From contig MEUZ01000007.1 in the NCBI GenBank assembly GCA_001772615.1, positions 108,283-172,282 on the forward strand: DNA of 64,000 nt. Direction: 5' to 3'. The position numbers were made by a program, and so were the translations under genes. Source of the stretch: a candidate division WWE3 bacterium RIFCSPHIGHO2_01_FULL_40_23. GTDB taxonomy: Bacteria > Patescibacteriota > WWE3 > UBA101185 > 2-01-FULL-41-18. The notes beneath the pieces were generated by a model. That model saw only the letters and a program-made list of their open reading frames with translations. It was not told the origin of the DNA and searched no databases. Shown here in pieces: positions 19,355-50,163 of this stretch. The first letter of the stretch is position 1. The number at the start of each line of letters is the position of its first letter.

Positions 19355-19359
19355 ATGAA

Positions 19360-21553: not shown

Positions 21554-21710
21554 CTTAAATCTCCTTTTTTTAATGGGCCAATATCAATATTAAGAAAAAG
21601 GTTATTCACCTCACAGAATTTTCTATTAACTAAATTGAAATAAAAAACTCTGAGAAAGGCTTAAGAGACTGGATTTACCAAAATCTTAAGCCTATGTGTG
21701 GGTCAGGATC

Positions 21711-22175
21711 TCAAACGGCGTACCGCCCGTCAGAAAGCGTGTACACCAAATCCCTCCTTTCACCAGCTAAACACTTGGCCCCCGCACTCTCCATAATTTC
21801 CGGAGTGAGCTGGACCCAGCCTTCCCCTGGTGAAGAAAGACCGAGGGTTGCCACCTTAAACATCTGGCTGTTCCAGTCTTGCGAAAGCCAGAACGTCCAG
21901 GAAGCGGCCTGATCTTCCGAAACCCACTCGGGAAGATCGAGCCGAAAGCCAGCAATCGCGGTTACGGCGATCATTGGCTCTATTCTCCCCTCCTCCCCAA
22001 ACCGGAAACCATGTGTTTCCTGGTAAGGTGGGGAAGGGTTTACCTCCCAACTCCCGTCGATGAAAGCGACAACGTCGCCCACGACGAGAGCTCCTTCTCT
22101 GCCTTCGACAGACAGAGCACGGACCGATGATCCGAGCTGCTGCCACTCAACGGCAGACGGGTATCTGATCTTCAT
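21711..22175 (-). CDS. hypothetical protein
   Basis: AAAGGAG RBS 8 nt upstream; 154 aa. Confidence 0.55.
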   Translation of the reverse strand: MKIRYPSAVEWQQLGSSVRALSVEGREGALVVGDVVAFIDGSWEVNPSPPYQETHGFRFGEEGRIEPMIAVTAIAGFRLDLPEWVSEDQAASWTFWLSQDWNSQMFKVATLGLSSPGEGWVQLTPEIMESAGAKCLAGERRDLVYTLSDGRYAV

Positions 22176-22271
22176 CTCAACACTCCTTTGTTTCCCGTCG
22201 GGCTCAAGGCCTTAATGGGATGTTGTTGAATGATTTCTTCTTTGAGCTTTCGCTCTCAAAATCTTCCATTA

Positions 22272-22361
22272 GATTGCTTCGCTACGCCTGCCTGCCGGCA
22301 GGCAGGCTCGCAATGACTTTAAACCAGGTCATTGCGAGGCTACAAAGTAGCCGAAGCAATC
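22272..22361. repeat. Family-2 palindromic repeat (extended, with CTGCCTGCCGGCAGGCAGG core)
   Basis: GATTGCTTCGCTACGCCTGCCTGCCGGCAGGCAGGCTCGCAATGAC...GTCATTGCGAGGCTACAAAGTAGCCGAAGCAATC. Confidence 0.75.
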
Positions 22362-22585
22362 TTGAGTAAATGGAAAACTTTAAGAGCGAGCCGACAGAAG
22401 AAGTACAAAGTACATTCCAAATTCTGTCGGCTCTAAGAGATAAATTGCTTTGTTGGTTTGATTTCTAATCGACGTTAGCGCGTCGTCAGGCTCAAACCTT
22501 CCTAAAAGCCTTTGGTTTCGGGTTCGGGTTAGAAGATCCAGGAATTAAGTCTCTCCCTTTTCTTCACCCCCGATTCCATTTTACT

Positions 22586-23851
22586 TTAAAGCGGAAACGG
22601 AATCACACTCCCAACAGGAACCTGGCTATCGTTTGAAAAAACAACGACAGCAGGCCCATGGCTGGGGTGAAGTTCGCTCCACTTTTTCCCGCTGACGGTG
22701 CGGGAAGACTCCCCAGGTTCAAATACAGCAACCCAGGAAGTTCCAGATTTGGTGTAGGACCTGGCGATAGCGCCGGTTAGCCACCGTGGCGCCTTGCCCG
22801 AAATCACTATACCCTTCTCCGTTTTCACGGAGGGCGGGATCACCAAGGGCAAATTCTTTACATCAAAAATCTGCCCGGGGATGCCAAACTCGACAAGAGT
22901 ATGATCATCCCTCTCCTCAACCCGCCAGTTGAGAAGTTGGCTGCCCTCACCCTGCGGTTCAACCTCCGGTATTCCTACATAACCCCAAGCTACCTTGGGA
23001 TCATAATAGAATACCTTCGTTGACTTTAGCCCGCAGGCGAGGGCATGGTATGGGGCTCCAAGCGGCGTGTTTCCCCAGAGGCACACCTTGCTTTGGCCGG
23101 CAACCTTTGCCGATACCATTGCAAGTAGCCCGGGGAGAACCGCCGGGAGCCAATCCCGATCCGATCCGCCATTTCGGACAGGGAGATTCAGACCCTCAGC
23201 CAGTCGCGGAAAGTTCACATCCGCAAGCTCGGACCCATCGGTCCAAGGCTCTGGCTGACCCGCAAGCTTTATTAAAAGCTCGGCCACCGCGCGGGCAGTC
23301 GGTGACCCAATCGGTGGCGTTTCCCGCTCAAGCCTCGTAATTCTGGCTTTGAGTGGAGCCCCCGTCTCAAACACCTCGTCCTCGGCCCCGACCAGAACCG
23401 ACTCCAGAATCGCCAAGGGTTTTACCCCAAGGCGCCCCGCTTCGGAAATCCAAGTCGGAACCACCTCGTCATATTTCGGCGACGCAATCACCAGAAGGTA
23501 ATCGCACCCCGAAAGAATGCGCTCGTTTTGGGAAGTCAGTTTAACCCCTGTCGGGGAAAACCTCCCTTCCACATCGAGCAACATCCCGCCAAGGTCGACG
23601 AGAGTCACGGGCATTCGGGAGTTGCGAACCGAGTCAACGACCCAGTCCACAAACCCATCAAGAAACTTGCCCTTGCGGCGAACCGCCTTGACAAGTTCCG
23701 GGTCCGCTTCAAAGCTCCAGCCGGTGATGCCCTCACCGTCAGGAGCCGCCTCAACGACGACAAAACTATCGCGAGGCAGAAGGGTCCGAAGCAGACCCAT
23801 GAGAACAGTCTTCCCCGAGTGGGGAGGACCGCCGATGGCCACTTTGACCAT
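22586..23851 (-). CDS. P-loop NTPase domain fused to an uncharacterised C-terminal domain
   Basis: AAGGAGGAGG RBS before MVKVAIGGPPHSGKTVLMGLL (Walker A GxxxxGKT); Walker-B-like LVDLGG. The C-terminal ~220 aa has no motif I recognise. Confidence 0.6.
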   Translation of the reverse strand: MVKVAIGGPPHSGKTVLMGLLRTLLPRDSFVVVEAAPDGEGITGWSFEADPELVKAVRRKGKFLDGFVDWVVDSVRNSRMPVTLVDLGGMLLDVEGRFSPTGVKLTSQNERILSGCDYLLVIASPKYDEVVPTWISEAGRLGVKPLAILESVLVGAEDEVFETGAPLKARITRLERETPPIGSPTARAVAELLIKLAGQPEPWTDGSELADVNFPRLAEGLNLPVRNGGSDRDWLPAVLPGLLAMVSAKVAGQSKVCLWGNTPLGAPYHALACGLKSTKVFYYDPKVAWGYVGIPEVEPQGEGSQLLNWRVEERDDHTLVEFGIPGQIFDVKNLPLVIPPSVKTEKGIVISGKAPRWLTGAIARSYTKSGTSWVAVFEPGESSRTVSGKKWSELHPSHGPAVVVFSNDSQVPVGSVIPFPL

Positions 23852-24124
23852 TTCCTCCTCCTTTTGGGGAGATAATCGAAGGGCGAATTCCCTTCTTAAC
23901 ATTTTGTTTAGTAAGTTTGATCAGCGTTAACTTACATCCGGTTAGTCTTCCGGAGAGCGCGGCAGTTGCGGAAAGAAAACCTGCTCAAGGTTAACTTTCC
24001 GTCCCTAATTCAAGTATGGCTGGGCTGACCCTTCCATTGTTTCATGAAGATTAAACTGCATCTCCACTACTCCATTCGATATTGCTATCGAAACTTAATT
24101 TGACAATCAGGGATTTGTAAAAAA

Positions 24125-25009
24125 CTAGGCCTTGGTCTCGCAGGTGGCCGAGGTGATGGCCAGGCGGAAAACCTGCCCACCTGGGAAGGCCACCGAGATG
24201 GTGCCCTCGCCGGCCTCGACCGAAACGCCATACGTACCGAGCTCGCTCGCCAATTGGCGAAGAGTCCCGGCGGTGGCGTCCGACTGCCACTTGGCAGTCA
24301 TGTTCGTGCCCCACAGGCGCATGTCCTGGGGGTCCACGATCTCACCAACGTGGAACGCCTTGTCGGCGCCACTGGCGAGGCGGATGGTCCGCGGCCAGCT
24401 CTCCGAAAGGCCGTGAATCGTCGCGGCTTGGAGAGCCGCGGCAAGACCGGCGCCCGCGGGGAGGTATAAAACCCGCCGCGAGGCCCAGTCGGCCTTGGTC
24501 AAACCGGTTGCGATCAGCCGGTCGACCATACCCTTGGTCGGGTCGGCCCAGTCGATTTGGCCGACGTTCGCGTCAATGGCGCGAATTTCCTCGACCGCCA
24601 CGTCGAGGATTTGGGCAAGCTCCCCAAGCTGCCCAGCGCTCATCCCCCGCCCGGACCCGTCCAAGACGGTGTAGCCGAGAAACGCTTCCCCTTGGGGGAC
24701 ATCACCGCGGCGACTGCGGACCGCCTGATGGCGGTAGCCACCGAGGTCCAAAACCCCCACCCGCTCGGCCTTTTGGCCGATCGAGTACAACGTCAGCGTC
24801 GGCAGTCCGCTGACCATTTCCAACCCCGCCGTGGCCAAAATGGCCGCCACGGCCTGCCCGGGAAGCGCGACCTCGCCCGCGGTCCGAAGACCGGGGCCGG
24901 CGGACTCCAAAATCTTTTGGACCTGGGCCAAAAAGTTCTGGCCAAAGTCCAGGGTTGCCGGCACGACCACGTCGGCCGGCAGGGCCAGATGAAACGAAAA
25001 TTTGGTCAT
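24125..25009 (-). CDS. hypothetical protein, possible ASKHA (actin/sugar-kinase-like) ATPase fold
   Basis: AAGGAGAAATCTC RBS. Gly-rich phosphate-loop-like segments VGVLDLGGYRH and YTVLDGSGRGMSAG. The fold call is weak. Confidence 0.45.
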   Translation of the reverse strand: MTKFSFHLALPADVVVPATLDFGQNFLAQVQKILESAGPGLRTAGEVALPGQAVAAILATAGLEMVSGLPTLTLYSIGQKAERVGVLDLGGYRHQAVRSRRGDVPQGEAFLGYTVLDGSGRGMSAGQLGELAQILDVAVEEIRAIDANVGQIDWADPTKGMVDRLIATGLTKADWASRRVLYLPAGAGLAAALQAATIHGLSESWPRTIRLASGADKAFHVGEIVDPQDMRLWGTNMTAKWQSDATAGTLRQLASELGTYGVSVEAGEGTISVAFPGGQVFRLAITSATCETKA

Positions 25010-25212
25010 GAGATTTCTCCTTTCTTCCTAGCCAACACTAATCCTTCCTGTTTTGTTTAAATCCCTCGGACGAAGCTATCCTTGGAAACAGAAAGGTTGA
25101 TAAATCCTGAATCTGCTCCAACTAAATTTTTGCCGTCACAAAAATCCGGTTGGAGAAAATCCAACGAATATACCCAATCCTTTAGTTTTTATTTCTAATC
25201 TGAACTTATGAA

Positions 25213-25264
25213 CGTCATCCTGAACTCGATTCAGGATCTAGATCCTGACTTGCGTCAGGATGAC
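25213..25264. repeat. Family-1 nested palindromic repeat
   Basis: GTCATCCTGAACTCGATTCAGGATCTAGATCCTGACTTGCGTCAGGATGACA. Confidence 0.7.
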
Positions 25265-25544
25265 AATTAGTAAGGACTTTTCAGAATGGGAACTTAAAAT
25301 GAAATTTCCAATCCGCAGAGCTCTTGCCAGCCATGCGACTTTAACTCAAAGTTAGAAGCCCACGCACCTTTAGTTGCGAGATACGGATTGGAATAAGAAA
25401 TGATTGCTGCCGTCTTCTCCGGAGTTAATTATTTTGATTACTCCAAAGAAAACCGGTCATAGGCAAATATTTTCCAAAGGGTATCTTTGGCCTTTTGTAA
25501 TTCCCGCCGCGAATACCACTGGAGGTTTCGCCTTTGCCATTTGT

Positions 25545-26012
25545 AGTGGCGGGAAGCTCAAGGATTTTATTAGTCTCGTCCGGGTTTCTCTATCCTCTTT
25601 GAGGTTCCACCGGGCGCCTTCGGCATTTCACAACAGCTTTTTTCAACTTATGAAGAGATACTTCACAAGTACTGTTGGATATTTGGGGCCGATTAGGTTG
25701 CATGCTTTTATGCATGGGGTATCCCAAACCCCGGGTGACTTGTTTTTAACCTTACCTGGGTCGATTCACCATTTCCCAGTACCAATACTTATCGCTTTTT
25801 AGGCGCCTTGGCAGGGCTATGCAATTTTAACGAAGGCATATCCTTCGGATAATCTATTTCGTGATTATCAATGTACGGGATTTACCCATCCTTGCGGATT
25901 GGGTTTCCTCTAATCGCCGGATCCTTCGGACCTGCCCACTGAAAAGTGGACTTGTCCTCCGTAGCCTTGGCGAAGGAGGATGAGTGACAAAGCCTAAATC
26001 CCTTCAGGCTTC
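25545..26012 (-). ncRNA. rnpB: Structured RNA with RNase P RNA hallmark motifs (candidate rnpB)
   Basis: Minus strand, 5'->3' in canonical order: GGAGGACAAGUCC (P4 5' strand-like), GGGCAGG, GAGGAAACCCA, CAGGUAAGG, UUCAUAAG, AGAGAAACCCGGAC (P4 3' strand-like). No protein-like ORF spans it; ORF 25404-25802 lies over it and is probably spurious. The P4 pairing is imperfect in my hand alignment. Confidence 0.45.
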
Positions 26013-26018
26013 GGGGGG

Positions 26019-26258
26019 CTAGTCGGCATGCATGACCTCTTCATGCACCCGGATCGCTTCCGCGATCAGGGCGTTGAAGTCGGTCGCCGGGTCCACGTGA
26101 AAAACCTGCACATAGACCGTAGGGCGGCCCTCTTTGACTGGATAAACCAGTCGGAAGGCCCCAACCTCGGCTACCCGATTCCCCCCATCAAATACCACCA
26201 CATTGTGGAGGTACTCCCCAGTCCGGTAGTTCCGGACGGGGACAAAGCTAAGACTCAT
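26019..26258 (-). CDS. small hypothetical protein
   Basis: AAGGAGGG RBS before MSLSFVPVRNY; 79 aa. Confidence 0.5.
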   Translation of the reverse strand: MSLSFVPVRNYRTGEYLHNVVVFDGGNRVAEVGAFRLVYPVKEGRPTVYVQVFHVDPATDFNALIAEAIRVHEEVMHAD

Positions 26259-26439
26259 CTTCAACCCTCCTTTCCTGCTCAAGGCTCATCCGCCTATGGC
26301 GGACGGTTGCGATTACTTAAATCGCAAGGAGCATGCCCACCCAGTGGACGAAGGAAGAAAATGAGTAATTGCCCACCCGATTTTGATAAGCAAATACTCA
26401 TCTTCTTTACTAAACTCTTGCTTTCAAAATTTTCTATAA

Positions 26440-26505
26440 GATTGCTTCGCTCCGCTCGCAATGACGTTAAACTAGGTCATAGCGAGGCTACAAAGTAGCT
26501 GAAGC
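26440..26505. repeat. Family-2 palindromic repeat
   Basis: GATTGCTTCGCTCCGCTCGCAATGAC...GTCATAGCGAGGCTACAAAGTAGCTGAAGC. Confidence 0.7.
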
Positions 26506-26969
26506 TTGAATAAATAAAAAACTTTGAAAGTGAGCCGACGGCAGGAATAGTACCTGTAGTTTACATCGGCTCAGAGATTTATTGCTTGCCATTTTCCCTT
26601 CAACCGTTACCGGATGTCGGGCACAACCCAATAGATTAACTTAAGTTTTGATCTCGCCTAAGATCTCACTTAAGAGCCGTTTCCTTTTTCATCACTCCGC
26701 GCGGTCCCCAGGGTAAGGTCTTAACCCGTAACCGCTTTGCGCTCATGCTTATCCCTCCGTCTCTATCAGGCGTTCAGGAGGTGCTCATCAGCCGCATGAG
26801 ATCGGTCCGTTCCGTTTGCTCTTCAAGGCTCTCCCTAAAGGAAAGCTCAAACGGAACTTTCCTCAGGGAGCCTCTTCACAAGAAACGAAGAGACCGTTCG
26901 CCTTAACCGGTTTTTCGCACATGGTGCCATGTTTCCGGAAAGGCAGGGTTTGCTGATAACCCTTTCACA

Positions 26970-27401
26970 CTAGGCGCGGGCGTGAAGGGCCTTGTGGACC
27001 TTCTGCCGCGCCTTCCGGCTTCCCCCTCCGCCGTACAACGCCCCCTTCTGCCCGGGAGCGCCCTGGGCTTTCCGGGAGTCCTGGGCCCGGGCGGCCTGCC
27101 GAGCCGCGCGAGCGCTCTCGCGGGCCGCGTTGAGGGCCCTCGCCTCGGGACTCCCAGGGGCTGGGCGGCGGGCTACCGCGGCGGACGCTTGTCGGCGCCC
27201 GAGTTCCCCTGCCGCTTTGCGAGCGGCCTCCTCCCCCCTGAACTTCTCCCAGGCCTCATCGGCCTGGACCTTCACCGTGCGGAAAGCACGGCACGCACGG
27301 TCGCAAAAGCTCTGCGACCTTGAGCTCCCCCACGTCGGGGGGAAAACGACCGTGGCGGTCGCGAGGGCTTTCGCCCCGCAACCGCAGTTAATAATATTCA
27401 T
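26970..27401 (-). CDS. hypothetical protein with N-terminal Cys cluster and Arg/Ala-rich tail
   Basis: AAAAGGAGAAG RBS; MNIINCGCGAK...CDRACRAF followed by low complexity. Last gene of the GC-rich island. Confidence 0.45.
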   Translation of the reverse strand: MNIINCGCGAKALATATVVFPPTWGSSRSQSFCDRACRAFRTVKVQADEAWEKFRGEEAARKAAGELGRRQASAAVARRPAPGSPEARALNAARESARAARQAARAQDSRKAQGAPGQKGALYGGGGSRKARQKVHKALHARA

Positions 27402-27494
27402 TTTTTACTTCTCCTTTTTGATTTATTTTTCCGTTCAAAGATTCCTTCCTTAAAAGAAATCCTCCAAAGGCAAAACAACTCTTTGGAGAAATAT

Positions 27495-27574
27495 GTCATC
27501 GCGAACGAAGTGAAGCGATCTCTTCAGATTGCTTCTCCGCTTCTGACAGTTGGCGGATAGTGGATCGCAATGAC
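27495..27574. repeat. Family-2 palindromic repeat
   Basis: GTCATCGCGAACGAAGTGAAGCGATC...GATTGCTTCTCCGC...GATCGCAATGAC. Confidence 0.7.
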
Positions 27575-27920
27575 TCAAGGAGGATAGGTTTTGGGGAGAA
27601 GGCAGGCTTACGAAAAACCTCACCCTCTCCCCTAACCTCAAAATACAAATTTCAAGTAATAGTTTATTCAATTGTCAAAGTGCTTTTGGGCCGTTATGAA
27701 AGTGTTAAAATACTAAATGAGTCAATAACGCAATCAAAAAACCCAAAAACGTACACAAAGCATTAATAAATGGATCAATACTTTGTCCAGTTTGGAGGCC
27801 CTACCACCTCCATCCTGGATAAAAGTCAACTACTTTTCATTTGGTAGGTTTAGTAATTGACCCTTCTTGATTGACAAGTCTCTTGTCAATCAAGAAGTTG
27901 ATTCATCGTTTACGGGTTCT

Positions 27921-28031
27921 GTCATTCCGGCGAAAGCCTGTCATCCTGACGTAAGTCAGGATCTAGATCCCGGGTCAAGCCCGGGATGACAAGGATCCAG
28001 TCCTGTACGACATAAAGTCAGCTCAGGATGA
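27921..28031. repeat. Family-1 nested palindromic repeat cluster (four hairpin units)
   Basis: GTCATTCCGGCGAAAGCC, GTCATCCTGACGTAAGTCAGGATC, AGATCCCGGGTCAAGCCCGGGATGACA and AGTCAGCTCAGGATGAC. Confidence 0.75.
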
Positions 28032-29349: not shown

Positions 29350-30141
29350 ATGGATGTGTTTGAGGATACACTTTATCATTGCGGCTTGTCAGAGCCTGAA
29401 GCTAAAGTCTACACTGCTCTCCTTAACTCCGGAGGCCAAACTGTTTTACAGCTATCCGCCCACGCTTCGCTTAAGCGCACAAACCTCTATAACGTTCTTG
29501 AGGACCTCACCAAAAAAGGCGTTGTAGCGGGAAAGAAGGTTAGAGGCAAAACCTTATATTTCCCTGAATCACCCAGAAGACTTGAAGACCTGCTCCTTGT
29601 CAGGGAAAACAGTATTTACACGGCAAGACAAACCCTGGAACTTGTGATGGGCATCCTGCAATCAAAATTCAACCTGATTACCAACAAACCCGTAATAACC
29701 TATCTTGAGGGTCTGCCGGGACTTAAAAGGCTGTACCAAGATATCCTTGATACCGGCCAAGATATCCTTCTATTCAGATCAACTTTTGATGATAAAAGAG
29801 CCGATGTTGACAGGCTCATTAAAAAGCAAATCACCGACCAGGTAAAAAGGGGGATTCACGCCCGGGTCATAAGCCCCTTTGAAACGGACGCCAAGGAAAT
29901 GTATTTAAAATACGACAAGTTCAGGCTGGTATCGCAAAAGTTCACTACAAAATTTCCCTTAAACCTTCCCGCCCAGATAATTATTTATGGAAATAAAATC
30001 TCAATGTCTACAATAAGAAAGGACATCATCATTACTTTAATTGACAATAAAGACATAACCGAAACCTTTAAAGTCCTCTTTGAGTTTGTTTGGGCTTATC
30101 TTGAAACGGAGCACAAAGAGCTTGTAAAAAACTGGAAGTAA
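29350..30141 (+). CDS. TrmB-family transcriptional regulator
   Basis: N-terminal winged HTH LSEPEAKVYTALLNSGGQTVLQLSAHASLKRTNLYNVLEDLTKKGVV is typical of TrmB; 263 aa. A TTGACA -35-like hexamer lies at ~29317. Confidence 0.7.
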   Translation: MDVFEDTLYHCGLSEPEAKVYTALLNSGGQTVLQLSAHASLKRTNLYNVLEDLTKKGVVAGKKVRGKTLYFPESPRRLEDLLLVRENSIYTARQTLELVMGILQSKFNLITNKPVITYLEGLPGLKRLYQDILDTGQDILLFRSTFDDKRADVDRLIKKQITDQVKRGIHARVISPFETDAKEMYLKYDKFRLVSQKFTTKFPLNLPAQIIIYGNKISMSTIRKDIIITLIDNKDITETFKVLFEFVWAYLETEHKELVKNWK

Positions 30142-30145: not shown

Positions 30146-31684
30146 TTAAAACTTTTCTGATAAGTAATTATCAAACTTTCTTGCGGCCTGCGGGAATCTC
30201 TCCGCTAGTTCTCCTGAAAAAGAGGCTTCATTGTGGGCTTTCTCTATACTCACAAGGGCTAAAACCTTACCCGGCCTTTCAGAAGGATAAACTTTCCTCT
30301 TTACACCGTCCTCCGTCACCGTCTCAATCCTTCCGACGCCAAGATCAAGCGAAACAGCTTTGTGCCCTCGGGTTTTTAAGTCACTAAGATCAATTGCAAC
30401 CCTTCCCTCTTCTTTAGTTCTCCCATGTGTAGATTTAAAATTAATCCTGGCTTCTCCCCCCTCCACAGATTCAGGCCTGATGTTAACAACAAGTCTATCT
30501 AAAGTATCCGGGTTAATAAACTCGTATACCGTGGCATTGTTCCTCTTATCAACATTTTTAGGCTTCTCCAGTACAAGAGGAGAAGGGCTTAAAGACAGGT
30601 TTCCAATTAATGTAAGAGTATGCCTTATTATTCTCATGTTATCTAAAATATCTTTAACTTCTATATCTGTATCCCCACCGCTTCTTCCGAGTATTAAAGC
30701 CGCCCTCATAAACTCTGCGCTTTTTCTAATTAACGCCTCATAAGCCTGGTCTGAAAAGGATACGCCCACAGCTGTTTCAGTATTACGAAGGATGCTTCTT
30801 AATGAATCGGCTTCTTGCGTCAAAGCATTAAATTCATTAAACATGCTGATTTTCTCATGAAATGAAACTCTCTCTGACTTTGAAAACTCTAATATCTCTT
30901 CTCCGCTTGCTCCATAATCCATTGTTAGGAACGCTTTAAGACCGCTTTCTCCAAAGACTCTGATAAACTCTGTAAATTCGGTTTTTTTATCTTCCTCCAA
31001 AGATGAGTAATGAACTACAAACCAGCCTTGCTCATGTAATTTAAGTGAACTTAGTTTAACGCCCGTTTTCTTGTCCATTTCATCAAAAAGCTTTCCATAT
31101 CCAGACAAAAAAAGCTGAAGGAAGAATTCCCGTGAGGCTCTTTGCTCTTCAGTTTCATCCGCTTTTGGTAAAAATACATCTTTGGAAGAAAGTTCTAACA
31201 CAAGGGCATCAACTGCTTTTGCCTCTTCTTCCAAATCAAGTTTAAAAAACCCCAAAAGCCTCCCATCTCCTTGAAAAACACCAATCGAACCGCTATTGTC
31301 TATTCTTTGAACATAAGAATCACCGCTTCCATAAAGCCTTACAAAAAATTCAGGATCCTTCTCTTTTACAAGATGGTAAACTTTATCAAAATAATTTACC
31401 CCTTCCTCGCTCTCTACACCTATTTTTCCAAGCTCCAGCCTATATAAAACTTCCGCCGACATTCTTTTAGTTAGAACGTCACTGCTTTCAAGATTCGCAA
31501 GAAGAGGCTCATAAGCGTCATTAATACCAAGCTTTTCAAAAGCCTGCACATAGTGCCTAAGGGCACCATTTGATTGGTATCGCATAAAGTCACAAAGAAA
31601 ACCGATTAATGCCTCCTTGTCCTCTGAAGTCCCGGATTCTCCAAATCTAACAAGATAATCAAGCACATCAAGATGAAGGAGCAT
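30146..31684 (-). CDS. hypothetical protein; downstream segment of a TAG-interrupted ~900-aa ORF
   Basis: Same frame as 31853-32842. Protein-like translation continues for 56 codons upstream of the first ATG right up to the TAG at 31853-31855. No SD precedes the ATG at 31684. Confidence 0.55.
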   Translation of the reverse strand: MLLHLDVLDYLVRFGESGTSEDKEALIGFLCDFMRYQSNGALRHYVQAFEKLGINDAYEPLLANLESSDVLTKRMSAEVLYRLELGKIGVESEEGVNYFDKVYHLVKEKDPEFFVRLYGSGDSYVQRIDNSGSIGVFQGDGRLLGFFKLDLEEEAKAVDALVLELSSKDVFLPKADETEEQRASREFFLQLFLSGYGKLFDEMDKKTGVKLSSLKLHEQGWFVVHYSSLEEDKKTEFTEFIRVFGESGLKAFLTMDYGASGEEILEFSKSERVSFHEKISMFNEFNALTQEADSLRSILRNTETAVGVSFSDQAYEALIRKSAEFMRAALILGRSGGDTDIEVKDILDNMRIIRHTLTLIGNLSLSPSPLVLEKPKNVDKRNNATVYEFINPDTLDRLVVNIRPESVEGGEARINFKSTHGRTKEEGRVAIDLSDLKTRGHKAVSLDLGVGRIETVTEDGVKRKVYPSERPGKVLALVSIEKAHNEASFSGELAERFPQAARKFDNYLSEKF

Positions 31685-31852
31685 ATGTTCATGAGATCCC
31701 CACTCAAGTTCCGAAGGGGTAAAATACTCTTCGTCGGTTAAAGGACCAGCGGGTACTATGGTATCCGAGAGATCGACGGTATCAAAGAAGCCAAGCTCAC
31801 CGGTTTTGGTATTAAAAGCCCAAACAGCGTCTGAGGAGGGTGAAATACCGAC

Positions 31853-32842
31853 CTACTGTTTTATAATTGCCGTGCTCCGTTCACTTGAATCCCTTATCTT
31901 TTCTGACAAGTCTTCAAAAAGTTCTTTAACATAAGGAAGGCCGGAAACTCCGCCTACATTAACGACTGATGCGGCAAATTCATATCTTAATGTGTTAAAC
32001 ACCCCATGATCCGTATGAAAATGACTGGTAGCAAAATCGGATAAAGATTTCATGGCTTCTTCTTTTGATGCCTGATCAAAAGTTTTTGTCGCTTCTTCAT
32101 AGCTTTTTAAAGCGGGAACTAAAAACTCATTCATGAAATGAGCATGGCTGCCTCCCGCTCTGGTATCAAAGGTGTCGGTAAAAGAGAACATCATTGCCGG
32201 CATTTCTGACTTAAAAACCGGATATACATTATTTTCTAAAAGACCAATATAGGCTTTTACAGTTTCATCTGGGGATCTAGGGGCTGCCTGATTTTCGATC
32301 TCGGCAAGCCTTAAGCTAAATGAAGAAGATTGAGGCAAATATTTTGCTTTAGACTTTAAGTAATCCTTTCTTGAGTTATATTGAACCGGATAAAATCTTC
32401 TAGCAGCCCTTTCCTCATTCAATATTCTGGATTCTTCAAAGGAATCCCTTTTGGGTATCGGCTGTCCCTTACCGGAAAGCTCTCTAAACTCTTCAATTGT
32501 TATCGTACTTTCTGGTTGTACGTAGGCATTTGGGAAAAGTTGTGATTCATCCATACCTTTAAAAACAGGAGGAATATAATCGCCTGGTTCTGGTTTAAAC
32601 CAATCATGGGGGAGACTATCGTCATAACCGGGCTCCTCATCATTTTTTTTATCAGGTCTTTTTTTAGAATCATTAGAAATGGCTGCGCCTGGAAAGAGCT
32701 CACCTACAAGCGAGGTGTCTTCTTGTCCAGGAATTTTGGTTTGTGCATCGGGATCTATATCAAAACTTACATCGGAGGCGGATTTATTACCCACAAAACT
32801 ATTATACTTAAATCCAATCCTGAATGAACTAGTGAAATTCAC
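31853..32842 (-). CDS. hypothetical protein; upstream segment of a TAG-interrupted ORF
   Basis: 329 aa ending at TAG; acidic, Pro-rich N-terminal part. Confidence 0.55.
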   Translation of the reverse strand: MNFTSSFRIGFKYNSFVGNKSASDVSFDIDPDAQTKIPGQEDTSLVGELFPGAAISNDSKKRPDKKNDEEPGYDDSLPHDWFKPEPGDYIPPVFKGMDESQLFPNAYVQPESTITIEEFRELSGKGQPIPKRDSFEESRILNEERAARRFYPVQYNSRKDYLKSKAKYLPQSSSFSLRLAEIENQAAPRSPDETVKAYIGLLENNVYPVFKSEMPAMMFSFTDTFDTRAGGSHAHFMNEFLVPALKSYEEATKTFDQASKEEAMKSLSDFATSHFHTDHGVFNTLRYEFAASVVNVGGVSGLPYVKELFEDLSEKIRDSSERSTAIIKQ

Positions 32843-32913
32843 TTTCGCGAGTTTGAGAGCCTACGCGGCAATTTGATAATTATGATAATATCAACAAAGA
32901 AAGGAGAAAGGCC

Positions 32914-33234
32914 ATGGCTTACCTTACTTTTGACCCCTCAGACAAGGGTTTGGAAGATATTCTGGTTCAATACGCCCACCTGCTGGAAAAAGCCCTGGTG
33001 GAGGGGCTTATTCCGTTTGGAGTGGACGAAGACGACGTTATTGTGAGGGTCCTGAAGTGCACAACCCGCATTTGTAACAAAATGCACATCAAGGTCACTT
33101 TGGAAACAGATAACCCCGCTGTAACTGCCGACGCCGTTACCGTCATGCTTCGCAAGGTGCTGACTGCTGAACCCTTCGAGGTCTCCCGCATCTTTGTCGG
33201 CGATGAAGGGGACTGGGCTTCAAATTACGAATAA
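32914..33234 (+). CDS. small hypothetical protein
   Basis: GAAAGGAGAAAGG RBS; 106 aa. Confidence 0.55.
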   Translation: MAYLTFDPSDKGLEDILVQYAHLLEKALVEGLIPFGVDEDDVIVRVLKCTTRICNKMHIKVTLETDNPAVTADAVTVMLRKVLTAEPFEVSRIFVGDEGDWASNYE

Positions 33235-34551: not shown

Positions 34552-36135
34552 TTAAAGATACCTGATCTTTAATCCACCGTCTCTTAACTCCATCACCTTA
34601 TCCACATCAACCTCGCTCACAAAGTACCTGTCGTGGGAGACAAGAAGCAGAGCGCCCTGATACTCCCTTAACGCACTTTCAACAGCTTCCTTTGCCGAAA
34701 TATCAAGGTGGTTTGTGGGCTCATCAAGGATCAAAAAATCATATTCACCGCAGGCAAAGACCGATAGCTTCAACCTTGCACGCTCCCCCGGGCTTAACAT
34801 TTTAAGTTTTTTATTTAATGCCTCCCTTTCAAATAAGAAGTTTTTCAGGTGAGAGTAAGCCTTGTCATATATCAGAGAGGAGTTCTGTAAAAAGTAGTCC
34901 AATACATTTAGATCAAGGTTAATTGGCTCATTTGATTGAGCAAAGTACCCAATTTTCAACCTCTCCCCTACTCTTAGATCTCCGGAATCAGCTTTTAATA
35001 GGCTTATAGCGCTATTTTCCGGTGATTTATCATTCCTCAAAAGATAATTTGAGTAAATTAGTTTAACAATGGTGCTTTTTCCCGCTCCATTTGGCCCAAA
35101 AAGCCAAATTTTCTCTTTGCCTCTTATTTCAAAATCAACATCAGAGATAACAGGCTTTCCATCAAAAGATTTGGCCAGCTTTTCAGCTTTTACGATAAGC
35201 TTTCCCGAGTGGGTATCACCCGCAATGCGTAAGTTTTCCATTTTCTTAATTTCATATCTTGAAACTTTATTTTCTTCAATCTCCCTCTTAAAACGGCTTT
35301 TGGCTGCTTTTACAGCTCCGGTTTTGCTCCCTACTATCTTGTGAGCAAGGGCTAAAAGATCCTCAAGCTTCTTCTTTTTCTTTAAAAATCTTGTATATTC
35401 ATCCTTTTTCTTCTCGAGAAACTGAAACTTTTGCTCCTGGAAAGTATCATAATTTCCTTCAAAAACATGAAATTCTTTATTCTCAAGCTCAAAAACCCTT
35501 GAGACCGTGTTATTTATGAAAGATCGGTCATGGGAAATCATTAAAACATTTCCCTTAAAATTTTTTATAAAATCCTCAAACCATAAAATACCGTCTATAT
35601 CCAGGTGGTTTGTAGGTTCATCAAGTAAAAGGCTCGTGGGTTCATCCGCTAAAACTTCAAGGAGCTTTAGCTTCATCTGTTCTCCCCCGCTCAAAGAGCC
35701 TATTTTTGTGTATTCATCAAAATTTGAAAAGCCAAGGCGTGACAAGAGAGCGTCAACAAGATGCTTTTTACCCATTTTTAGGATAATTTTTTCTAAAAAT
35801 TCTCCTGCCAAGATTTCAAGAGGCAGATCAAGTTCCTGCGGAAGAAATCCGAGTTTTTCCGATTCAAGGAGAACTGAACCGCCTGTTTTTTCCTCAAGCC
35901 CTGCAATTATCTTAAGAAGCGTGGTTTTGCCGCAGCCATTCGGGCCGGTTAAAGCGACTTTTTCATTTTTAGAAAGCACAAAAGTAACCCCTTGAAAGAG
36001 GGTTTCGCCTGCAAAGTATTCTTTTGCGAGGTCCTTAACCTTAATCACGGAAGAAGTATAGGGTAAAAAAAGGCTATATGAAAGCATAAAAAACCGGCCT
36101 AGGGTTAATAGGCCGGTGATTCCTGCAATCTTCAT
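34552..36135 (-). CDS. ABC-F family ATPase (tandem ABC domains, no TMD)
   Basis: Two Walker A motifs (GPNGCGKTT, GPNGAGKST), two ABC signatures (LSGGEQMKL, LSPGERARL) and an inter-domain linker. The start is coupled to the upstream stop (TAA CTG ATG). Confidence 0.8.
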   Translation of the reverse strand: MKIAGITGLLTLGRFFMLSYSLFLPYTSSVIKVKDLAKEYFAGETLFQGVTFVLSKNEKVALTGPNGCGKTTLLKIIAGLEEKTGGSVLLESEKLGFLPQELDLPLEILAGEFLEKIILKMGKKHLVDALLSRLGFSNFDEYTKIGSLSGGEQMKLKLLEVLADEPTSLLLDEPTNHLDIDGILWFEDFIKNFKGNVLMISHDRSFINNTVSRVFELENKEFHVFEGNYDTFQEQKFQFLEKKKDEYTRFLKKKKKLEDLLALAHKIVGSKTGAVKAAKSRFKREIEENKVSRYEIKKMENLRIAGDTHSGKLIVKAEKLAKSFDGKPVISDVDFEIRGKEKIWLFGPNGAGKSTIVKLIYSNYLLRNDKSPENSAISLLKADSGDLRVGERLKIGYFAQSNEPINLDLNVLDYFLQNSSLIYDKAYSHLKNFLFEREALNKKLKMLSPGERARLKLSVFACGEYDFLILDEPTNHLDISAKEAVESALREYQGALLLVSHDRYFVSEVDVDKVMELRDGGLKIRYL

Positions 36136-38078: not shown

Positions 38079-38666
38079 ATGGATGACGCGCTATTAAAAC
38101 AGGATGAAAAAGGAATAATTAATATATCCGATACGGTTAATCCGAACGCGATTTGGTATGCCGTCCACACATACTCCGGCCATGAAAATAAGGTCGCAAT
38201 TACGCTTAAACAGCGGGCTGAATCTTCAGGCTATCAGGATAGAATTTGTCAGATTCTTGTCCCCACACAGGAAAAAATTGTAATCAGCGAAGGGAAGAAA
38301 AGGAAAGTTGACGAGCATCTTTTACCCGGATACATCCTTGTCAATATGGTAATGAGCGATGATGCCTGGCACCTTGTAAGGTCAACCACCGGCGTTACGG
38401 GATTCGTCGGAACGGGCACCACGCCGACACCGCTTCCCGAAGCCGAGGTTAAGTCCATCCTTAAGTTTATGAAAATGGAGGCCCCCAAGTTTGAGGCTAA
38501 GTTTAAGGTCGGAGACAGCGTAAAGATAATTGACGGACCATTTACTGACTTTCTTGGAAAAGTTGACGAAGTTAACGACAGCGCCGGAAAAGTGAAGATT
38601 TTGGTTTCGGTTTTTGGGCGAGAGACTCCCATGGAGCTTGATTTTTTGCAGGTAGCTCCTTTGTAA
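38079..38666 (+). CDS. nusG: Transcription termination/antitermination factor NusG
   Basis: NGN domain (WYAVHTYSGHENKV) and C-terminal KOW (FKVGDSVKIIDGPFTDFLGKV); conserved secE-nusG-rplK synteny. Confidence 0.9.
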   Translation: MDDALLKQDEKGIINISDTVNPNAIWYAVHTYSGHENKVAITLKQRAESSGYQDRICQILVPTQEKIVISEGKKRKVDEHLLPGYILVNMVMSDDAWHLVRSTTGVTGFVGTGTTPTPLPEAEVKSILKFMKMEAPKFEAKFKVGDSVKIIDGPFTDFLGKVDEVNDSAGKVKILVSVFGRETPMELDFLQVAPL

Positions 38667-38687
38667 AAGTAGTTTCTAGACCAACAC

Positions 38688-39110
38688 ATGGCTAAAAAGA
38701 TAAAAGCTTTTGTAAAACTTAATATACCTGCGGGAAAAGCTACCCCCGCTCCCCCGGTCGGACCGTCTCTTGGACAGCACGGCGTTCCCCTCATGGAATT
38801 CTGCAAGGAATTTAATGCGAGAACGGCCAAAATGGGAGATGACATAATACCGGTCGTTTTAACTGTCTATGAGGACAGAAGCTTTACCTTTATAACTAAA
38901 ACACCCCCGGCCTCATCTCTTCTTCTTAAAGCCTCGGGAGTTGCCAAAGGTTCGGGCACACCAAACAAACAAAAAGTCGGACAGGTTACAAAAGATCAGG
39001 TTTTGGAAATAGCTAAAAGAAAGATGCCTGATTTAAACGCGAGGGATATTAACCAGGCGGTAAAGATTGTGGAAGGAACTGCAAGGTCTATGGGTATTTC
39101 AGTAGTTTGA
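38688..39110 (+). CDS. rplK: 50S ribosomal protein L11
   Basis: [33 protein letters not shown] is canonical L11. Confidence 0.95.
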
Positions 39111-39111
39111 T

Positions 39112-39810
39112 ATGAAAAAACAAATTACTTTAAAATCAAAAAAGCATCAGAAGGCCTCAAAACTCCTTGAAGAAGGTAAGATGTACTCATTAGATCAGGC
39201 TTTAGATCTTTCAAAAGAAACTTCGTACTCAAATTTTGATGCGACTCTTGAAGCCCATTTTAATCTGGATCTTGACTTAAAAAGTGGTGATCAAAATATC
39301 AGAACAACAGTCACTCTCCCCCATGGAACCGGAAAGACCGTAAAAGTGGCGGTGTTTTCAACAGAAAAAGTAAAAGGCGCCGACCTCTCATTAGGTGAAG
39401 AAGGAATTACAATGATAGAGCAAGGGAAAATAAAACCTAAAACCGATTTTGACATAGTCGCTTCGGAACCTTCGTTCATGCCTAAACTTGCAAAAGTTGC
39501 CAAAATTTTAGGACCTGCGGGAATGATGCCAAACCCTAAAACTCAAACCGTTTCAAATGACCTTGAAAAAACTGTCTCCGATTTAAAAAAAGGAAGAATT
39601 GAACTTAAACTGGAAGCCAACGCACCAATCATTCACACAAAAATAGGCAAAATGAGCTTCTCAAAGGATGCCCTTAAAGAAAATTTTCTGGAAGTGTTAA
39701 AAGCGCTTAAGGCAAACAAACCGCAGAAAGCTTCACCGAGCTGGATTAAATCTTGTTTTTTATCGGCTACCATGGGCCCCTCAATCAAAGTAGATTTTGA
39801 AAGCCTCTAG
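39112..39810 (+). CDS. rplA: 50S ribosomal protein L1
   Basis: L1 family sequence; position after rplK; TAG stop. Confidence 0.9.
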   Translation: MKKQITLKSKKHQKASKLLEEGKMYSLDQALDLSKETSYSNFDATLEAHFNLDLDLKSGDQNIRTTVTLPHGTGKTVKVAVFSTEKVKGADLSLGEEGITMIEQGKIKPKTDFDIVASEPSFMPKLAKVAKILGPAGMMPNPKTQTVSNDLEKTVSDLKKGRIELKLEANAPIIHTKIGKMSFSKDALKENFLEVLKALKANKPQKASPSWIKSCFLSATMGPSIKVDFESL

Positions 39811-39967
39811 CTTCTTATACTTGACAAGAGAAAGGGGCTCATGTAACCTTTCTTCGTTTCCGTAGAAAGTAAGGTCCCGCTGTCAGCCAACTGGCGACAC
39901 GGGTCAATTAGAGGAATCTAGCCTACCGAGGAAAAACAATTTAAGATCCCTTTGCATTAAACTTTAA
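39811..39967 (+). promoter_or_regulatory. Structured leader upstream of rplJ (L10 leader-like)
   Basis: 157-nt untranslated, GC-balanced spacer between rplA and rplJ. Hairpin candidates GAAAGGGGCTCATGTAACCTTTCTTC and CGCTGTCAGCCAACTGGCGACACGGG. The position matches known L10(L12)4 autoregulatory leaders. Confidence 0.5.
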
Positions 39968-40528
39968 TTGTTATCCTCTAAGCTTGAAAATCAAATGCCA
40001 AATCAAAAAAACAAAGAGCAGGTTTTTGCTCTAAAAGATAAAATTTCAAAGGCTAAGTCCATTGTTTTTACCGACTATAAAGGGCTTAACTCAAATCAGG
40101 CAAACGAGTTAAGAAGGAAGCTTTCAGAAGAAGGCTCTGAAATAGAAATTGCCAAAAACACTCTTCTTAAAATCGCACTTAAGGAGTCAGGATATGAAAT
40201 AAAGGAAGTTGAAAAAACTTTTGAGGGATCAACCGCGGCAATTCTTTCTTACAGCGATCCTATCTCACCTCTTAAAAAGCTCTTTGAATTTATTAAAACG
40301 GCAGGTTTGCCAAAAGTTAAACTTGGAATCTTTGATGGCGGATTTCTCCCCGAGTCGGATGTGGAAACATTAAGCAAACTGCCTTCCAAAGAAGTCTTAG
40401 TGTCCAAGCTTCTTTCAACTTTCAACTCCCCTATCTTTGGATTTGTAAATGTCTTATCGGGAACCAAAAGAAAATTCGTTTACGCGCTAAATGAGATTAC
40501 AAAGAAGAAAGGTGGGGCCGCTTCTTAA
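39968..40528 (+). CDS. rplJ: 50S ribosomal protein L10
   Basis: L10 family (SIVFTDYKGLNSNQANELRRKL); position before rplL. Confidence 0.9.
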   Translation: MLSSKLENQMPNQKNKEQVFALKDKISKAKSIVFTDYKGLNSNQANELRRKLSEEGSEIEIAKNTLLKIALKESGYEIKEVEKTFEGSTAAILSYSDPISPLKKLFEFIKTAGLPKVKLGIFDGGFLPESDVETLSKLPSKEVLVSKLLSTFNSPIFGFVNVLSGTKRKFVYALNEITKKKGGAAS

Positions 40529-40587
40529 AAAGAAGCGCTTACGGGCATCAAAAATCCCGACAGAAGTCGGGACCTTTGAAAAGCTCA

Positions 40588-40725
40588 CTTAGTGAGAGTT
40601 TATTGGAACTACCAATCCTGGTGTATTGTACAACGCAGCTTTTTGTTTTGTCAATATTTCTTTGGTGGACCCTAGGGGAATTGCACCCCTGGGCTTTGGA
40701 TTGGTAGTTCCAAACCCACACTAAG
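40588..40725. repeat. Long inverted repeat in the rplJ-rplL spacer (28-31 bp arms enclosing an internal GC hairpin)
   Basis: Arm 1 CTTAGTGAGAGTTTATTGGAACTACCAATCC. Arm 2 GGATTGGTAGTTCCAAACCCACACTAAG. Internal hairpin CCCTAGGGGAATTGCACCCCTGGG. Confidence 0.7.
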
Positions 40726-40800
40726 TAGGGCCCACCAGTAATCTATATAACACAAGTTTAACTATACTACAATATATATTGTATAAAGGGGGTGTTAAAA

Positions 40801-41202
40801 ATGGCAGAATTATCAAAACATGCGGAAAAAGTTATGGAGCTTGTTGAAAGCATGACCGTTCTTGAACTTAATGATCTAGTAAAAGCGCTTGAAGAAAAGT
40901 TTGGTGTGTCGGCATCAGCACCCATGATGAACATGGTTATGCCTCAAGGAGGCGCAGCCAATGCTTCGGCCGAGCCGGTTGAAGAAAAAACATCATTTGA
41001 TGTGGTACTAGCCGATGCTGGAGCCACCAAAATCAATGTCATTAAAGCAGTAAGAGAAATAAATCAGCAGTTAGGGCTTGTTGAGGCCAAAACTCTTGTT
41101 GAATCGGCTCCTAAAGTCATTCTTGAAGGAGTTAAAAAAGAAGCGGCTGAAGCAGCAAAGAAAAAGCTTGAAGAGGCAGGCGCTAAAGTTGAGCTCAAAT
41201 AA
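40801..41202 (+). CDS. rplL: 50S ribosomal protein L7/L12
   Basis: AAAGGGGG RBS; [36 protein letters not shown] is canonical L7/L12. Confidence 0.95.
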
Positions 41203-41276
41203 TCATAGGGAGTAGAAGTTCACAACCCTCAATTCATTGACATTACAGAGCGCAAGCTAAATAATTTAAATGTCAA

Positions 41277-50154: not shown

Positions 50155-50163
50155 ACAAAGTTT

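What the first reader, a model, noticed from the sequence alone, without database searches (positions are those of the whole stretch)
30146..32842. ~900-aa ORF interrupted by a single in-frame TAG
ORFs 31853-32842 and 30146-31684 are in the same frame. The 56 codons between the TAG (31853-31855) and the first ATG read as ordinary protein (VGISPSSDAVWAFNTKTGELGFFDTVDLSDTIVPAGPLTDEEYFTPSELEWGSHEH). There is no SD or alternative start in that stretch. TAG is a functional stop elsewhere in the window: rplA ends with it. The most likely reading is a recent nonsense mutation, or a sequencing error, in a large hypothetical gene. Programmed readthrough is the less likely alternative.
Basis: seen in the sequence. 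Interest (0 to 1): 0.5.

Follow-up and report, generated by a model that had tools for sequence, protein, structure and literature searches.

The report
Real nonsense mutation splitting a WWE3 gene
Two neighbouring "hypothetical" genes of an uncultured groundwater bacterium (candidate division WWE3) are the two halves of one ~900-residue gene cut by a genuine GAG-to-TAG nonsense mutation. This is an ordinary early pseudogene or split gene, not a sequencing error and probably not recoding.

Summary
On the minus strand, ORF A (32842..31853) and ORF B (31852..30146) share one frame and are separated by one TAG (31855..31853). The 56 codons before the first ATG (31684) look coding.

- **One ancestral gene.** An exhaustive HMMER search found 297 homologues, nearly all single proteins of 720-900 aa. 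The positional orthologue P0124 (885 aa, same convergent TrmB neighbour) aligns with A (residues 59-289) and with B from its first codon (292-874). It has GAG (Glu291) where the window has TAG.
- **Not an error.** Eleven independent assemblies covering the TAG are 100% identical here.
- **TAG is a normal stop.** It ends MreB, L1 and 9 of 30 confident genes.
- **No readthrough signal.** No orthologue has a stop at this site, and no RNA structure follows it.
- **No decay yet.** B keeps the family's conserved residues (0 of 23 deviations).

Whether B is still translated, from ATG 31684 or by leaky readthrough, cannot be decided from sequence. The family has no Pfam match and no significant match to any solved structure. 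Interest is low.

The parts
31856..32842 (-). ORF A (329 codons from GTG 32842; public gene calls also use GTG 32794, giving 313 aa). It is the N-terminal part of the ancestral gene: a disordered tail plus a helical N-domain. The start codon is uncertain, because the first in-frame ATG is codon 97.
   Evidence: BLASTP to P0124 residues 59-289 gives 38% identity, E 7e-50. Deposited as OGC49911.1/OGC55556.1, a 313-aa hypothetical protein. In the AF2 model of P0124, residues 1-116 are low-confidence and helices span 122-291.
31853..31855 (-). The in-frame TAG (CTA on the + strand). It aligns with Glu291 (GAG) of the orthologue P0124, which implies a single G>T change at its first base (window position 31855).
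   Evidence: The base is identical in 11 independent assemblies.
31685..31852 (-). A 56-codon stretch between the TAG and the first ATG. It is former (or still) coding sequence, homologous to P0124 residues 292-347, which form a beta-hairpin and short helices.
   Evidence: Coding log-likelihood. 34/56 residues identical to P0124. phmmer aligns query residues 2-568 with P0124 residues 293-874. pLDDT is 77-92 for this part of the P0124 model.
30146..31684 (-). ORF B (512 aa from ATG 31684, TAA stop at 30146-30148). It contains the whole conserved core of the family: one PBS-HEAT-like repeat, a beta domain, a helical middle part and a C-terminal beta-rich domain with the motifs GGEARINF, SLDLGxG and HNEASF.
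   Evidence: all conserved columns lie at fused positions 447-883. (alphaRep/HEAT-like match). Deposited as OGC49910.1/OGC55555.1.
29350..30141 (+). A convergent TrmB-family regulator gene (263 aa). It is the conserved neighbour of this gene family and serves as the synteny anchor for orthology.
   Evidence: Pfam TrmB, E 3.8e-13. The same convergent TrmB (256-265 aa) follows the intact gene in L026, L027, L028 and L029. It is 57-60% identical to those copies.
31758..31934 (+). A 58-aa antisense ORF that public gene callers place over the TAG region. It is most likely a spurious call filling the apparent gap between A and B.
   Evidence: Called in L009-L012, L017, L018, L020, L024 and L025. The conserved, coding-like frame here is on the minus strand.

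Best explanation
ORF A and ORF B are the two parts of one ancestral ~900-codon gene of a candidate division WWE3 (Patescibacteria) bacterium. A single G>T substitution turned a Glu codon (GAG) into TAG at the end of the N-terminal helical domain. The mutation is real and was the only allele recovered in every assembly of the sampled aquifer population. It is recent on the scale of divergence between known WWE3 genomes, because nothing else in the 898 codons is broken and the conserved residues are all kept. Ribosomes terminate at this TAG as they do at other TAG stops of the genome, so the main product is the 329-residue N-terminal fragment and the full-length protein is no longer made in bulk. 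This makes the locus an early-stage pseudogene or truncation. Shown: one ancestral gene, the position and nature of the change, the reality of the base call, and TAG acting as a stop elsewhere. Inferred: that the mutation is recent, and that the downstream 512-568 codons are now translated little or not at all.
For: Frame continuity and a single stop. Coding signal runs through the TAG and the 56 codons. There are 297 homologues, nearly all single 720-900-aa proteins. The best, P0124 (885 aa), aligns from the first codon after the TAG (query 2-568 with protein 293-874), and ORF A aligns with its residues 59-289 at E 7e-50. P0124 reads ATA ATG CAG GAC GAG CTG GGA where the window reads ATT ATA AAA CAG TAG GTC GGT. 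Synteny supports orthology: the intact gene plus a convergent TrmB occurs in four other genomes. Eleven assemblies from different samples and assemblers cover the TAG at 100% identity over 3.0-5.3 kb, and two GenBank MAGs carry the same two pieces. TAG ends MreB at profile position 323/327 and L1 at 198/198, and ends 9 of 30 confident genes. No orthologue has a stop at this column. The 161 nt around the TAG fold no better than shuffles (z = +0.78). The context of the ORF B ATG resembles internal ATGs: 0.56 AT against 0.57 for internal ATGs and 0.69 +/- 0.09 for real starts. If B were untranslated, the absence of any further stop bounds the time since the mutation at about 0.036 substitutions per site (95%). 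Another family member, L031, carries a frameshift plus an in-frame TAG, so the family can be lost in WWE3 lineages.
Against: B shows no sign of relaxed constraint. It deviates at 0 of 23 (>=90% conserved), 2 of 48 (>=80%) and 5 of 75 (>=70%) conserved columns, like its intact relatives. This fits a very recent mutation, but it fits continued function equally well. The TAG lies in an indel-rich, variable part of the family alignment, at the end of a long helix and before the conserved core, which is a place where a split might be tolerated. ORF B's ATG lies upstream of every conserved column. There is no within-population variation and no relative closer than 47% identity, so neither the age of the mutation nor dN/dS could be measured. 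No expression data were available.
Confidence: 0.72

Rival explanations
1. Functional gene fission. The nonsense mutation split the gene at a domain boundary and both pieces are still made and used: A as a free N-terminal helical domain, and B from ATG 31684 (or from a non-canonical start nearer the TAG) as the conserved core.
For: B retains essentially all family-conserved residues. All conserved columns lie downstream of the ATG. The TAG is at the end of helix 241-291 of the orthologue model, in the most variable and indel-rich part of the family. Most genes of this genome start without an SD, so its absence is no obstacle. mRNA structure around the ATG (-8.1 kcal/mol) is within the range of real starts (-7.6 +/- 3.2). 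Met at this column is unique to the target.
Against: No other family member is naturally split. The two short homologues are a scaffold gap and a multi-lesion pseudogene. The 56 codons upstream of the ATG are still open and 61% identical to the orthologue, more than the rest of the protein. That is not expected if they had been untranslated spacer for long, so any fission would have to be recent. AT content upstream of the ATG matches internal ATGs, not starts. The stretch that an ATG-started B would lack is confidently structured in the orthologue model.
Confidence: 0.17
2. Leaky or programmed readthrough of the TAG. A fraction of ribosomes inserts an amino acid at UAG (by a near-cognate or suppressor tRNA), giving both a 329-aa N-terminal protein and the full-length ~898-aa protein.
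For: An uninterrupted frame and full coding signal continue past the stop. The stretch directly after the TAG is the best-conserved segment relative to the orthologue. B shows no decay.
Against: The stop is not conserved: orthologues have a sense codon there (GAG in P0124). There is no stable RNA structure around or after the stop (z = +0.78). TAG is a frequent, effective terminator here (9/30 genes, including MreB and L1). The five tRNA genes in the window include none with a CUA anticodon and no Pyl-type tRNA. The context CAG-UAG-G resembles other genuine TAG stops in the window, for example GAA-TAG-G at 2731 and AAA-TAG-G at 54867.
Confidence: 0.07
3. Sequencing or assembly error. The true sequence has a sense codon and the TAG is an artefact of one assembly.
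For: None found. It was a reasonable prior for a metagenome-assembled genome.
Against: Eleven assemblies covering the TAG are 100% identical over the region with no mismatch or gap. They comprise ENA ERZ27254752, ERZ27254756, ERZ27254846, ERZ27254728, ERZ4903070, ERZ909589, ERZ28563591 and ERZ28564264, JGI 3300025323 and 3300002502, and Logan SRR2090153. They were made with different assemblers.
Confidence: 0.01
4. Reassigned genetic code or pyrrolysine: TAG is a sense codon in this organism.
For: Only the open frame past the TAG.
Against: TAG ends MreB and ribosomal protein L1 exactly where their Pfam profiles end and ends 9 of 30 confident genes. No other long same-frame ORF pair in the window is joined by a TAG without its own nearby start. 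No Pyl-type tRNA is in the window.
Confidence: 0.01

Closest known systems
Uncharacterised ~730-900-aa protein family of candidate division WWE3 (e.g. OGC58526.1/OGC64270.1, 818 aa; P0124, 885 aa)
   Same: Homology covers both halves (38% identity over A, 47-50% over B with P0124). The conserved motifs and the convergent TrmB neighbour are shared.
   Different: The window's copy is interrupted by one TAG and is deposited as two separate hypothetical proteins. All close relatives that could be checked are single ORFs.
Classical nonsense (amber) pseudogenes and polymorphic amber alleles in bacteria, such as the rpoS amber alleles of E. coli K-12 lineages (from general knowledge, not tested here)
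   Same: A single base change creates UAG inside an otherwise intact gene. The rest of the frame is preserved because the event is recent. The possible outcomes are the same: a truncated product, low-level suppression, or restart downstream.
   Different: Here the gene has unknown function and the host is an uncultured CPR bacterium. No suppressor background or revertant allele is known, and only one allele was seen in every sample.
Programmed stop-codon readthrough (e.g. the phage Q-beta A1 protein) and pyrrolysine decoding of UAG (from general knowledge)
   Same: An open, coding-like frame continues beyond an in-frame stop.
   Different: The stop is not conserved among orthologues. There is no downstream stimulatory structure, no Pyl machinery or suppressor tRNA in the window, and TAG is used as an ordinary terminator.
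PBS-lyase-type HEAT repeats (alphaRep scaffolds)
   Same: One repeat in ORF B (LLANLESSDVLTKRMSAEVLYRLE) matches alphaRep sequences with the family profile at E 1e-7 to 1e-5. Weak Pfam HEAT/HEAT_2 hits occur in homologues.

Membership tests
WWE3 uncharacterised ~730-900-aa protein family (P0124 / OGC58526.1-like) | Significant sequence similarity over the conserved core | tested here: met
   phmmer E 4e-159 to P0124. 297 hits at E <= 1e-3, of which 38 at E <= 1e-30. 0/23 deviations at columns >=90% conserved.
WWE3 uncharacterised ~730-900-aa protein family (P0124 / OGC58526.1-like) | N-terminal domain present upstream of the core in the same polypeptide | tested here: not met
   The N-domain homologue exists (ORF A against P0124 59-289, E 7e-50), but a TAG separates it from the core. 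40 of 43 homologues have 170-413 residues before the core in one ORF.
WWE3 uncharacterised ~730-900-aa protein family (P0124 / OGC58526.1-like) | Conserved neighbourhood: a convergent TrmB-family gene immediately downstream | tested here: met
   Window TrmB is at 29350-30141. The same arrangement occurs in L026, L027, L028 and L029.
Pseudogene by nonsense mutation | In-frame stop at a position where orthologues have a sense codon, with orthologues uninterrupted | tested here: met
   TAG against GAG (Glu291) in P0124. Other homologues have E, Q, T and other residues, or a gap.
Pseudogene by nonsense mutation | The stop is a real base in the organism, not an artefact | tested here: met
   11 independent assemblies are 100% identical across it.
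Pseudogene by nonsense mutation | Relaxed constraint or further lesions downstream of the stop | tested here: not met
   There are no further stops or frameshifts in 898 codons and conserved residues are kept. An apparent rate excess (85 against 23 unique changes) is matched by the neighbouring TrmB (27 against 4-9), so it reflects the genome's long branch. This is compatible only with a recent event, under ~0.036 substitutions per site.
Pseudogene by nonsense mutation | Loss of the full-length product | not testable with these tools
   Needs proteomics or ribosome profiling of the aquifer community.
Programmed stop-codon readthrough / recoding | The stop codon is conserved at the site among orthologues | tested here: not met
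   No homologue has a stop at this column. The four orthologous loci are uninterrupted ORFs.
Programmed stop-codon readthrough / recoding | A stimulatory RNA structure or special context 3' of the stop | tested here: not met
   MFE is -36.5 kcal/mol against a shuffle mean of -39.5, z = +0.78. The context resembles other genuine TAG stops.
Programmed stop-codon readthrough / recoding | A decoding agent: suppressor tRNA(CUA) or pylT/pylS | tested here: inconclusive
   None among the 5 tRNA genes of the window. The rest of the genome was not available.
Alternative genetic code with TAG as sense | TAG does not terminate conserved genes | tested here: not met
   MreB and L1 end at TAG at the ends of their profiles. 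TAG ends 9 of 30 genes.
Split gene (fission) with two independently translated products | Start codon with a start-like context for the second piece | tested here: inconclusive
   ATG 31684 exists. Upstream AT content is 0.56, like internal ATGs at 0.57 and unlike real starts at 0.69 +/- 0.09. Local folding does not discriminate. The genome mostly lacks SD.
Split gene (fission) with two independently translated products | The split state is shared by relatives | tested here: not met
   Relatives are single ORFs. The short forms are a scaffold gap (L030) or a broken copy (L031).

The most novel reading that the evidence does not exclude
The TAG is tolerated or even used. It sits at the junction between the N-terminal helical domain and the conserved core. 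The cell would then make a free N-domain plus either a separately initiated core protein or, by low-level UAG readthrough, some full-length protein. That would be a freshly born two-product locus in a streamlined CPR genome, and the perfect preservation of the downstream 568 codons would reflect selection rather than youth.
Probability: 0.2. Interest if true: 0.4.

Novelty: new member of a known kind. Interest (0 to 1): 0.15.

Why it matters
The practical value is mainly for annotation. OGC49910.1/OGC55555.1 and OGC49911.1/OGC55556.1 should be treated as fragments of one gene, and the 58-aa antisense call over the junction is probably spurious.

The case also documents an uncharacterised WWE3-associated family. 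It has about 300 detectable relatives, is always paired with a convergent TrmB gene in the loci examined, and has no Pfam match and no significant match to any solved structure. The family appears dispensable in at least two lineages.

For CPR biology it is one small data point: nonsense alleles can become the only detectable allele in a clonal aquifer population of a small-genome bacterium. It does not open a new mechanism unless expression data show that the downstream part is still made.

Tried and rejected
1. **Fused query.** The search for homologous proteins with the fused 882-aa sequence (X at the stop) returned nothing. The same database found P0124 and eight others when queried with the 568-aa piece. 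The empty result was therefore a query artefact, not evidence that the gene is an orphan.
2. **Locus searches.** The search for related loci with the fused protein found nothing in genome contigs or metagenome contigs. With the neighbouring ABC-F protein, genome contigs gave only relatives of <=30% identity.
3. **Family libraries.** Pfam, NCBIfam, PHROGs, PADLOC and PDB sequence searches on both halves gave no significant family.
4. **Internal duplication** between A and B: none.
5. **Repeats, promoters and terminators** around the TAG: nothing above chance. RNA structure: none.
6. **Relative-rate test** as evidence of decay. The target has 85 unique changes against 23 for P0124 (p = 1.5e-9). 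This was rejected because the neighbouring TrmB shows the same asymmetry. The genome is simply the long or outgroup branch.
7. **Short homologues** P0131 and P0133 as natural core-only forms: rejected. One is split by a run of N, and the other has a frameshift plus a stop.
8. **Synteny via the 62%-identical ABC-F** (P0002, L008): the target gene is absent there.
The afdb50 fold library was unavailable.
10. **Fold searches** gave only generic helical-bundle hits. Weak, non-significant Foldseek hits to the Pct1 RNA triphosphatase tunnel fold (E 0.4-2.4) were not pursued.
11. **Strain variants.** The 90% clusters of both pieces contain no full-length version.
Full report
**Observation.** On the minus strand the sequence reads ...ATT ATA AAA CAG TAG GTC GGT ATT TCA..., with the TAG at 31855..31853. 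The ORF listing gives ORF A at 31853..32842 (329 aa, GTG start) and ORF B at 30146..31684 (512 aa, ATG start). The stop-to-stop frames 31853-32860 and 30146-31852 abut in one frame. There is no in-frame ATG, GTG or TTG before 31684.

A codon-usage log-likelihood trained on 24 other genes of the window stays clearly positive in this frame through the TAG and the 56 codons, as high as inside either ORF. It falls to negative values only outside 30146-32842.

**Organism and reality of the base.** The neighbouring ABC-F protein (34555-36135, minus strand) is identical to OGC49914.1/OGC55559.1 of a candidate division WWE3 bacterium (Patescibacteria). Looking up contigs that encode this protein and ORF B returned many independent assemblies of the same population. 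They come from ENA, JGI and Logan, from different samples and assemblers.

Eleven of them cover the TAG and are 100% identical to the window over 3.0-5.3 kb, without a single mismatch or gap. A sequencing or assembly error is therefore excluded. The population appears clonal here, so there is no polymorphism to exploit. GenBank carries the two pieces as separate hypothetical proteins: a 512-aa entry (OGC49910.1/OGC55555.1) and a 313-aa entry (OGC49911.1/OGC55556.1). Their 90% clusters hold no full-length variant.

**One ancestral gene.** The first protein search, with a fused query containing X, returned nothing. This was later shown to be a query artefact. An exhaustive phmmer search of 1.84 billion representatives with the 568 residues following the TAG found 297 homologues, of which 38 scored below E 1e-30. 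Almost all are single proteins of 720-900 aa in which the matching region begins at residue ~250-410.

The best hit, P0124 (885 aa), aligns from query residue 2, the codon right after the TAG, to the end (293-874; E 4e-159). ORF A aligns with P0124 residues 59-289 (38% identity, E 7e-50) and B-extended with 292-874 (47%). At the junction P0124 reads ATA ATG CAG GAC GAG CTG GGA (IMQDELG), where the window reads ATT ATA AAA CAG TAG GTC GGT (IIKQ*VG). One G>T change from GAG therefore accounts for the TAG.

P0124 is a positional orthologue: its gene is followed by a convergent 263-aa TrmB gene, as in the window. The same pair, an intact 764-872-aa gene with a convergent TrmB, occurs in three further genomes (L027, L028, L029).

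Two shorter homologues were checked. P0131 (554 aa) is cut by a run of N in a scaffold. P0133 (459 aa, L031) is a copy with a frameshift and its own in-frame TAG at another site. Neither is a natural core-only form, and L031 shows that the family can decay in WWE3 lineages.

**Is TAG a stop here?** It is. TAG ends MreB at profile position 323/327 and L1 at 198/198, and ends 9 of 30 confident genes of the low-GC part of the window (TAA 17, TAG 9, TGA 4). The other same-frame neighbouring gene pairs in the window each have their own start within 0-9 codons of the upstream stop and their own complete domains.

The five tRNA genes in the window include none with a CUA anticodon and no Pyl-type tRNA. 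The 161 nt around the TAG fold no better than shuffled sequence (z = +0.78). Nothing positive therefore supports programmed readthrough, and the key criterion, conservation of the stop among orthologues, fails.

**How old, and is the downstream part still used?** In an alignment of the fused target with 43 homologues, the target deviates at 0 of 23 columns conserved at >=90%, 2 of 48 at >=80% and 5 of 75 at >=70%. These figures are similar to those of its closest intact relatives. All these columns lie at fused positions 447-883, downstream of ORF B's ATG (position 387).

The 56-codon stretch is 61% identical to P0124, against 35% for A and 48% for the rest of B. It has therefore been translated for nearly all the time since the two lineages split.

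A relative-rate test at first suggested acceleration in the target, with 85 unique changes against 23 (p = 1.5e-9). The neighbouring TrmB gene shows the same asymmetry, with 27 singleton changes against 4-9, compared with 53 against 10-22 for the big protein. The excess therefore reflects this genome's long or outgroup branch, and I rejected it as evidence of decay.

If B were untranslated, the lack of any further stop in its 1704 nt bounds the age of the mutation at about 0.036 substitutions per site (95%). Either the mutation is recent or B is still under selection. Sequence alone cannot separate the two.

The start-site evidence is weak:
- The 25 nt upstream of ATG 31684 are 56% AT, like internal ATGs (57%) and unlike real starts (69 +/- 9%).
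- Local folding does not discriminate.
- SD absence is uninformative, because most genes here lack one.

**Structure and function of the family.** AlphaFold2 on P0124 with a 45-sequence alignment gave mean pLDDT 82.5 and pTM 0.79. The model has these parts:
- A low-confidence N-terminal ~116 residues.
- A helical N-domain (helices 122-291).
- A beta-hairpin with short helices (300-342), which is the equivalent of the 56-codon stretch.
- A helical region containing one PBS-HEAT-like repeat.
- A beta domain (442-509).
- A long helical part (525-708).
- A C-terminal beta-rich domain (715-817).

Glu291, the TAG equivalent, is the last residue of the long helix 241-291, at pLDDT ~91. The cut therefore falls at the end of the N-domain, in the part of the family alignment richest in indels.

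No function can be assigned:
- No Pfam or NCBIfam family matches.
- A family profile hits only alphaRep/HEAT repeats over ~35 residues.
- More distant relatives share only the middle module and carry other C-terminal domains, for example a methyltransferase in P0155.

**Verdict.** This is one large hypothetical gene of a WWE3 bacterium interrupted by a genuine, apparently fixed GAG>TAG nonsense mutation. Sequencing error is excluded, a reassigned code is excluded, and programmed readthrough is unsupported but not formally excluded.

The most likely state is an early pseudogene or truncation. A recent functional split, or leaky readthrough that keeps the core in use, remains possible at about 0.2-0.25 combined. 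The phenomenon is ordinary. The useful outputs are an annotation correction and the delineation of an uncharacterised, TrmB-linked WWE3 protein family.

Noticed in passing
window 14000-28000; L028 9800-14470: A GC-rich block (GC 0.51-0.585 against 0.39-0.45 elsewhere) whose genes have strong Shine-Dalgarno sites, unlike most low-GC genes. It encodes bpMoxR AAA+ (19360-20568), a VWA protein (17510-19273), an 895-aa protein with no Pfam match (14252-16939) and a Csx3-domain protein (22586-23902). This looks like a MoxR-vWA ternary-type conflict system. The same order (big gene, TrmB, Csx3-like, MoxR at 66% identity) and the same GC rise occur in another WWE3 contig, L028. It is therefore a conserved WWE3 neighbourhood rather than a chimeric assembly.
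   Followed up: partly
L031 1-1934 (Logan SRR22388351): An independent broken copy of the same family. It has a frameshift near nt 165-185 and an in-frame TAG at nt 546-548 inside the conserved HEAT-like motif (LGA*EAVPHLL), where homologues mostly have Glu. This is again compatible with GAG>TAG.
   Followed up: partly
L030 4460-6665 (GCA_964373525.1): The 554-aa family member P0131 is an artefact. The gene is cut by a run of N (a scaffold gap), and the N-domain continues in the upstream 186-aa call.
   Followed up: yes
window 31758-31934 (+): A 58-aa antisense ORF is called over the TAG junction in many public assemblies of this contig. It is probably a gene-caller artefact caused by the apparent gap between the two pieces.
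   Followed up: partly
window 45990-53070 (-): A glycogen/starch-type cluster with duplicated genes: two GT5 starch-synthase-like genes (46887-48317, 51448-53070), two tandem GH57 genes (48706-50154, 50164-51438) and a GalT-like gene (45990-46886). Several are in the same frame and separated by 0-9 nt, including a TAG followed 9 nt later by ATG between the GH57 paralogues.
   Followed up: partly
window 38079-45729 (+): The nusG-rplK-rplA-rplJ-rplL cluster is followed not by rpoB/rpoC but by two large Big_7 Ig-domain proteins (795 and 573 aa, the second with a metallophosphatase domain).
   Followed up: no
homologues P0155, P0164 (not in the window): Distant relatives share only the HEAT-like, beta and helical middle module of ORF B (query ~75-400) and carry different C-terminal domains. 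P0155 has a SAM methyltransferase domain, and P0164 has a weak cyclodipeptide-synthase-like hit. This suggests a modular family.
   Followed up: no
tool behaviour: The word-indexed protein search returned no hit for the fused query containing an X, but it found the 47%-identical orthologue when given the 568-aa piece. The negative result should not be read as absence of homologues.
   Followed up: yes
window 32843-32913 and 32914-33234 (+): ORF A has no in-frame ATG before codon 97, so it must start at GTG 32842 or GTG 32794. A divergent 106-aa ORF with a strong SD (GAAAGGAGAAAGGCC ATG) starts 71 nt upstream on the other strand. It has no Pfam, PHROG or PADLOC match.
   Followed up: no
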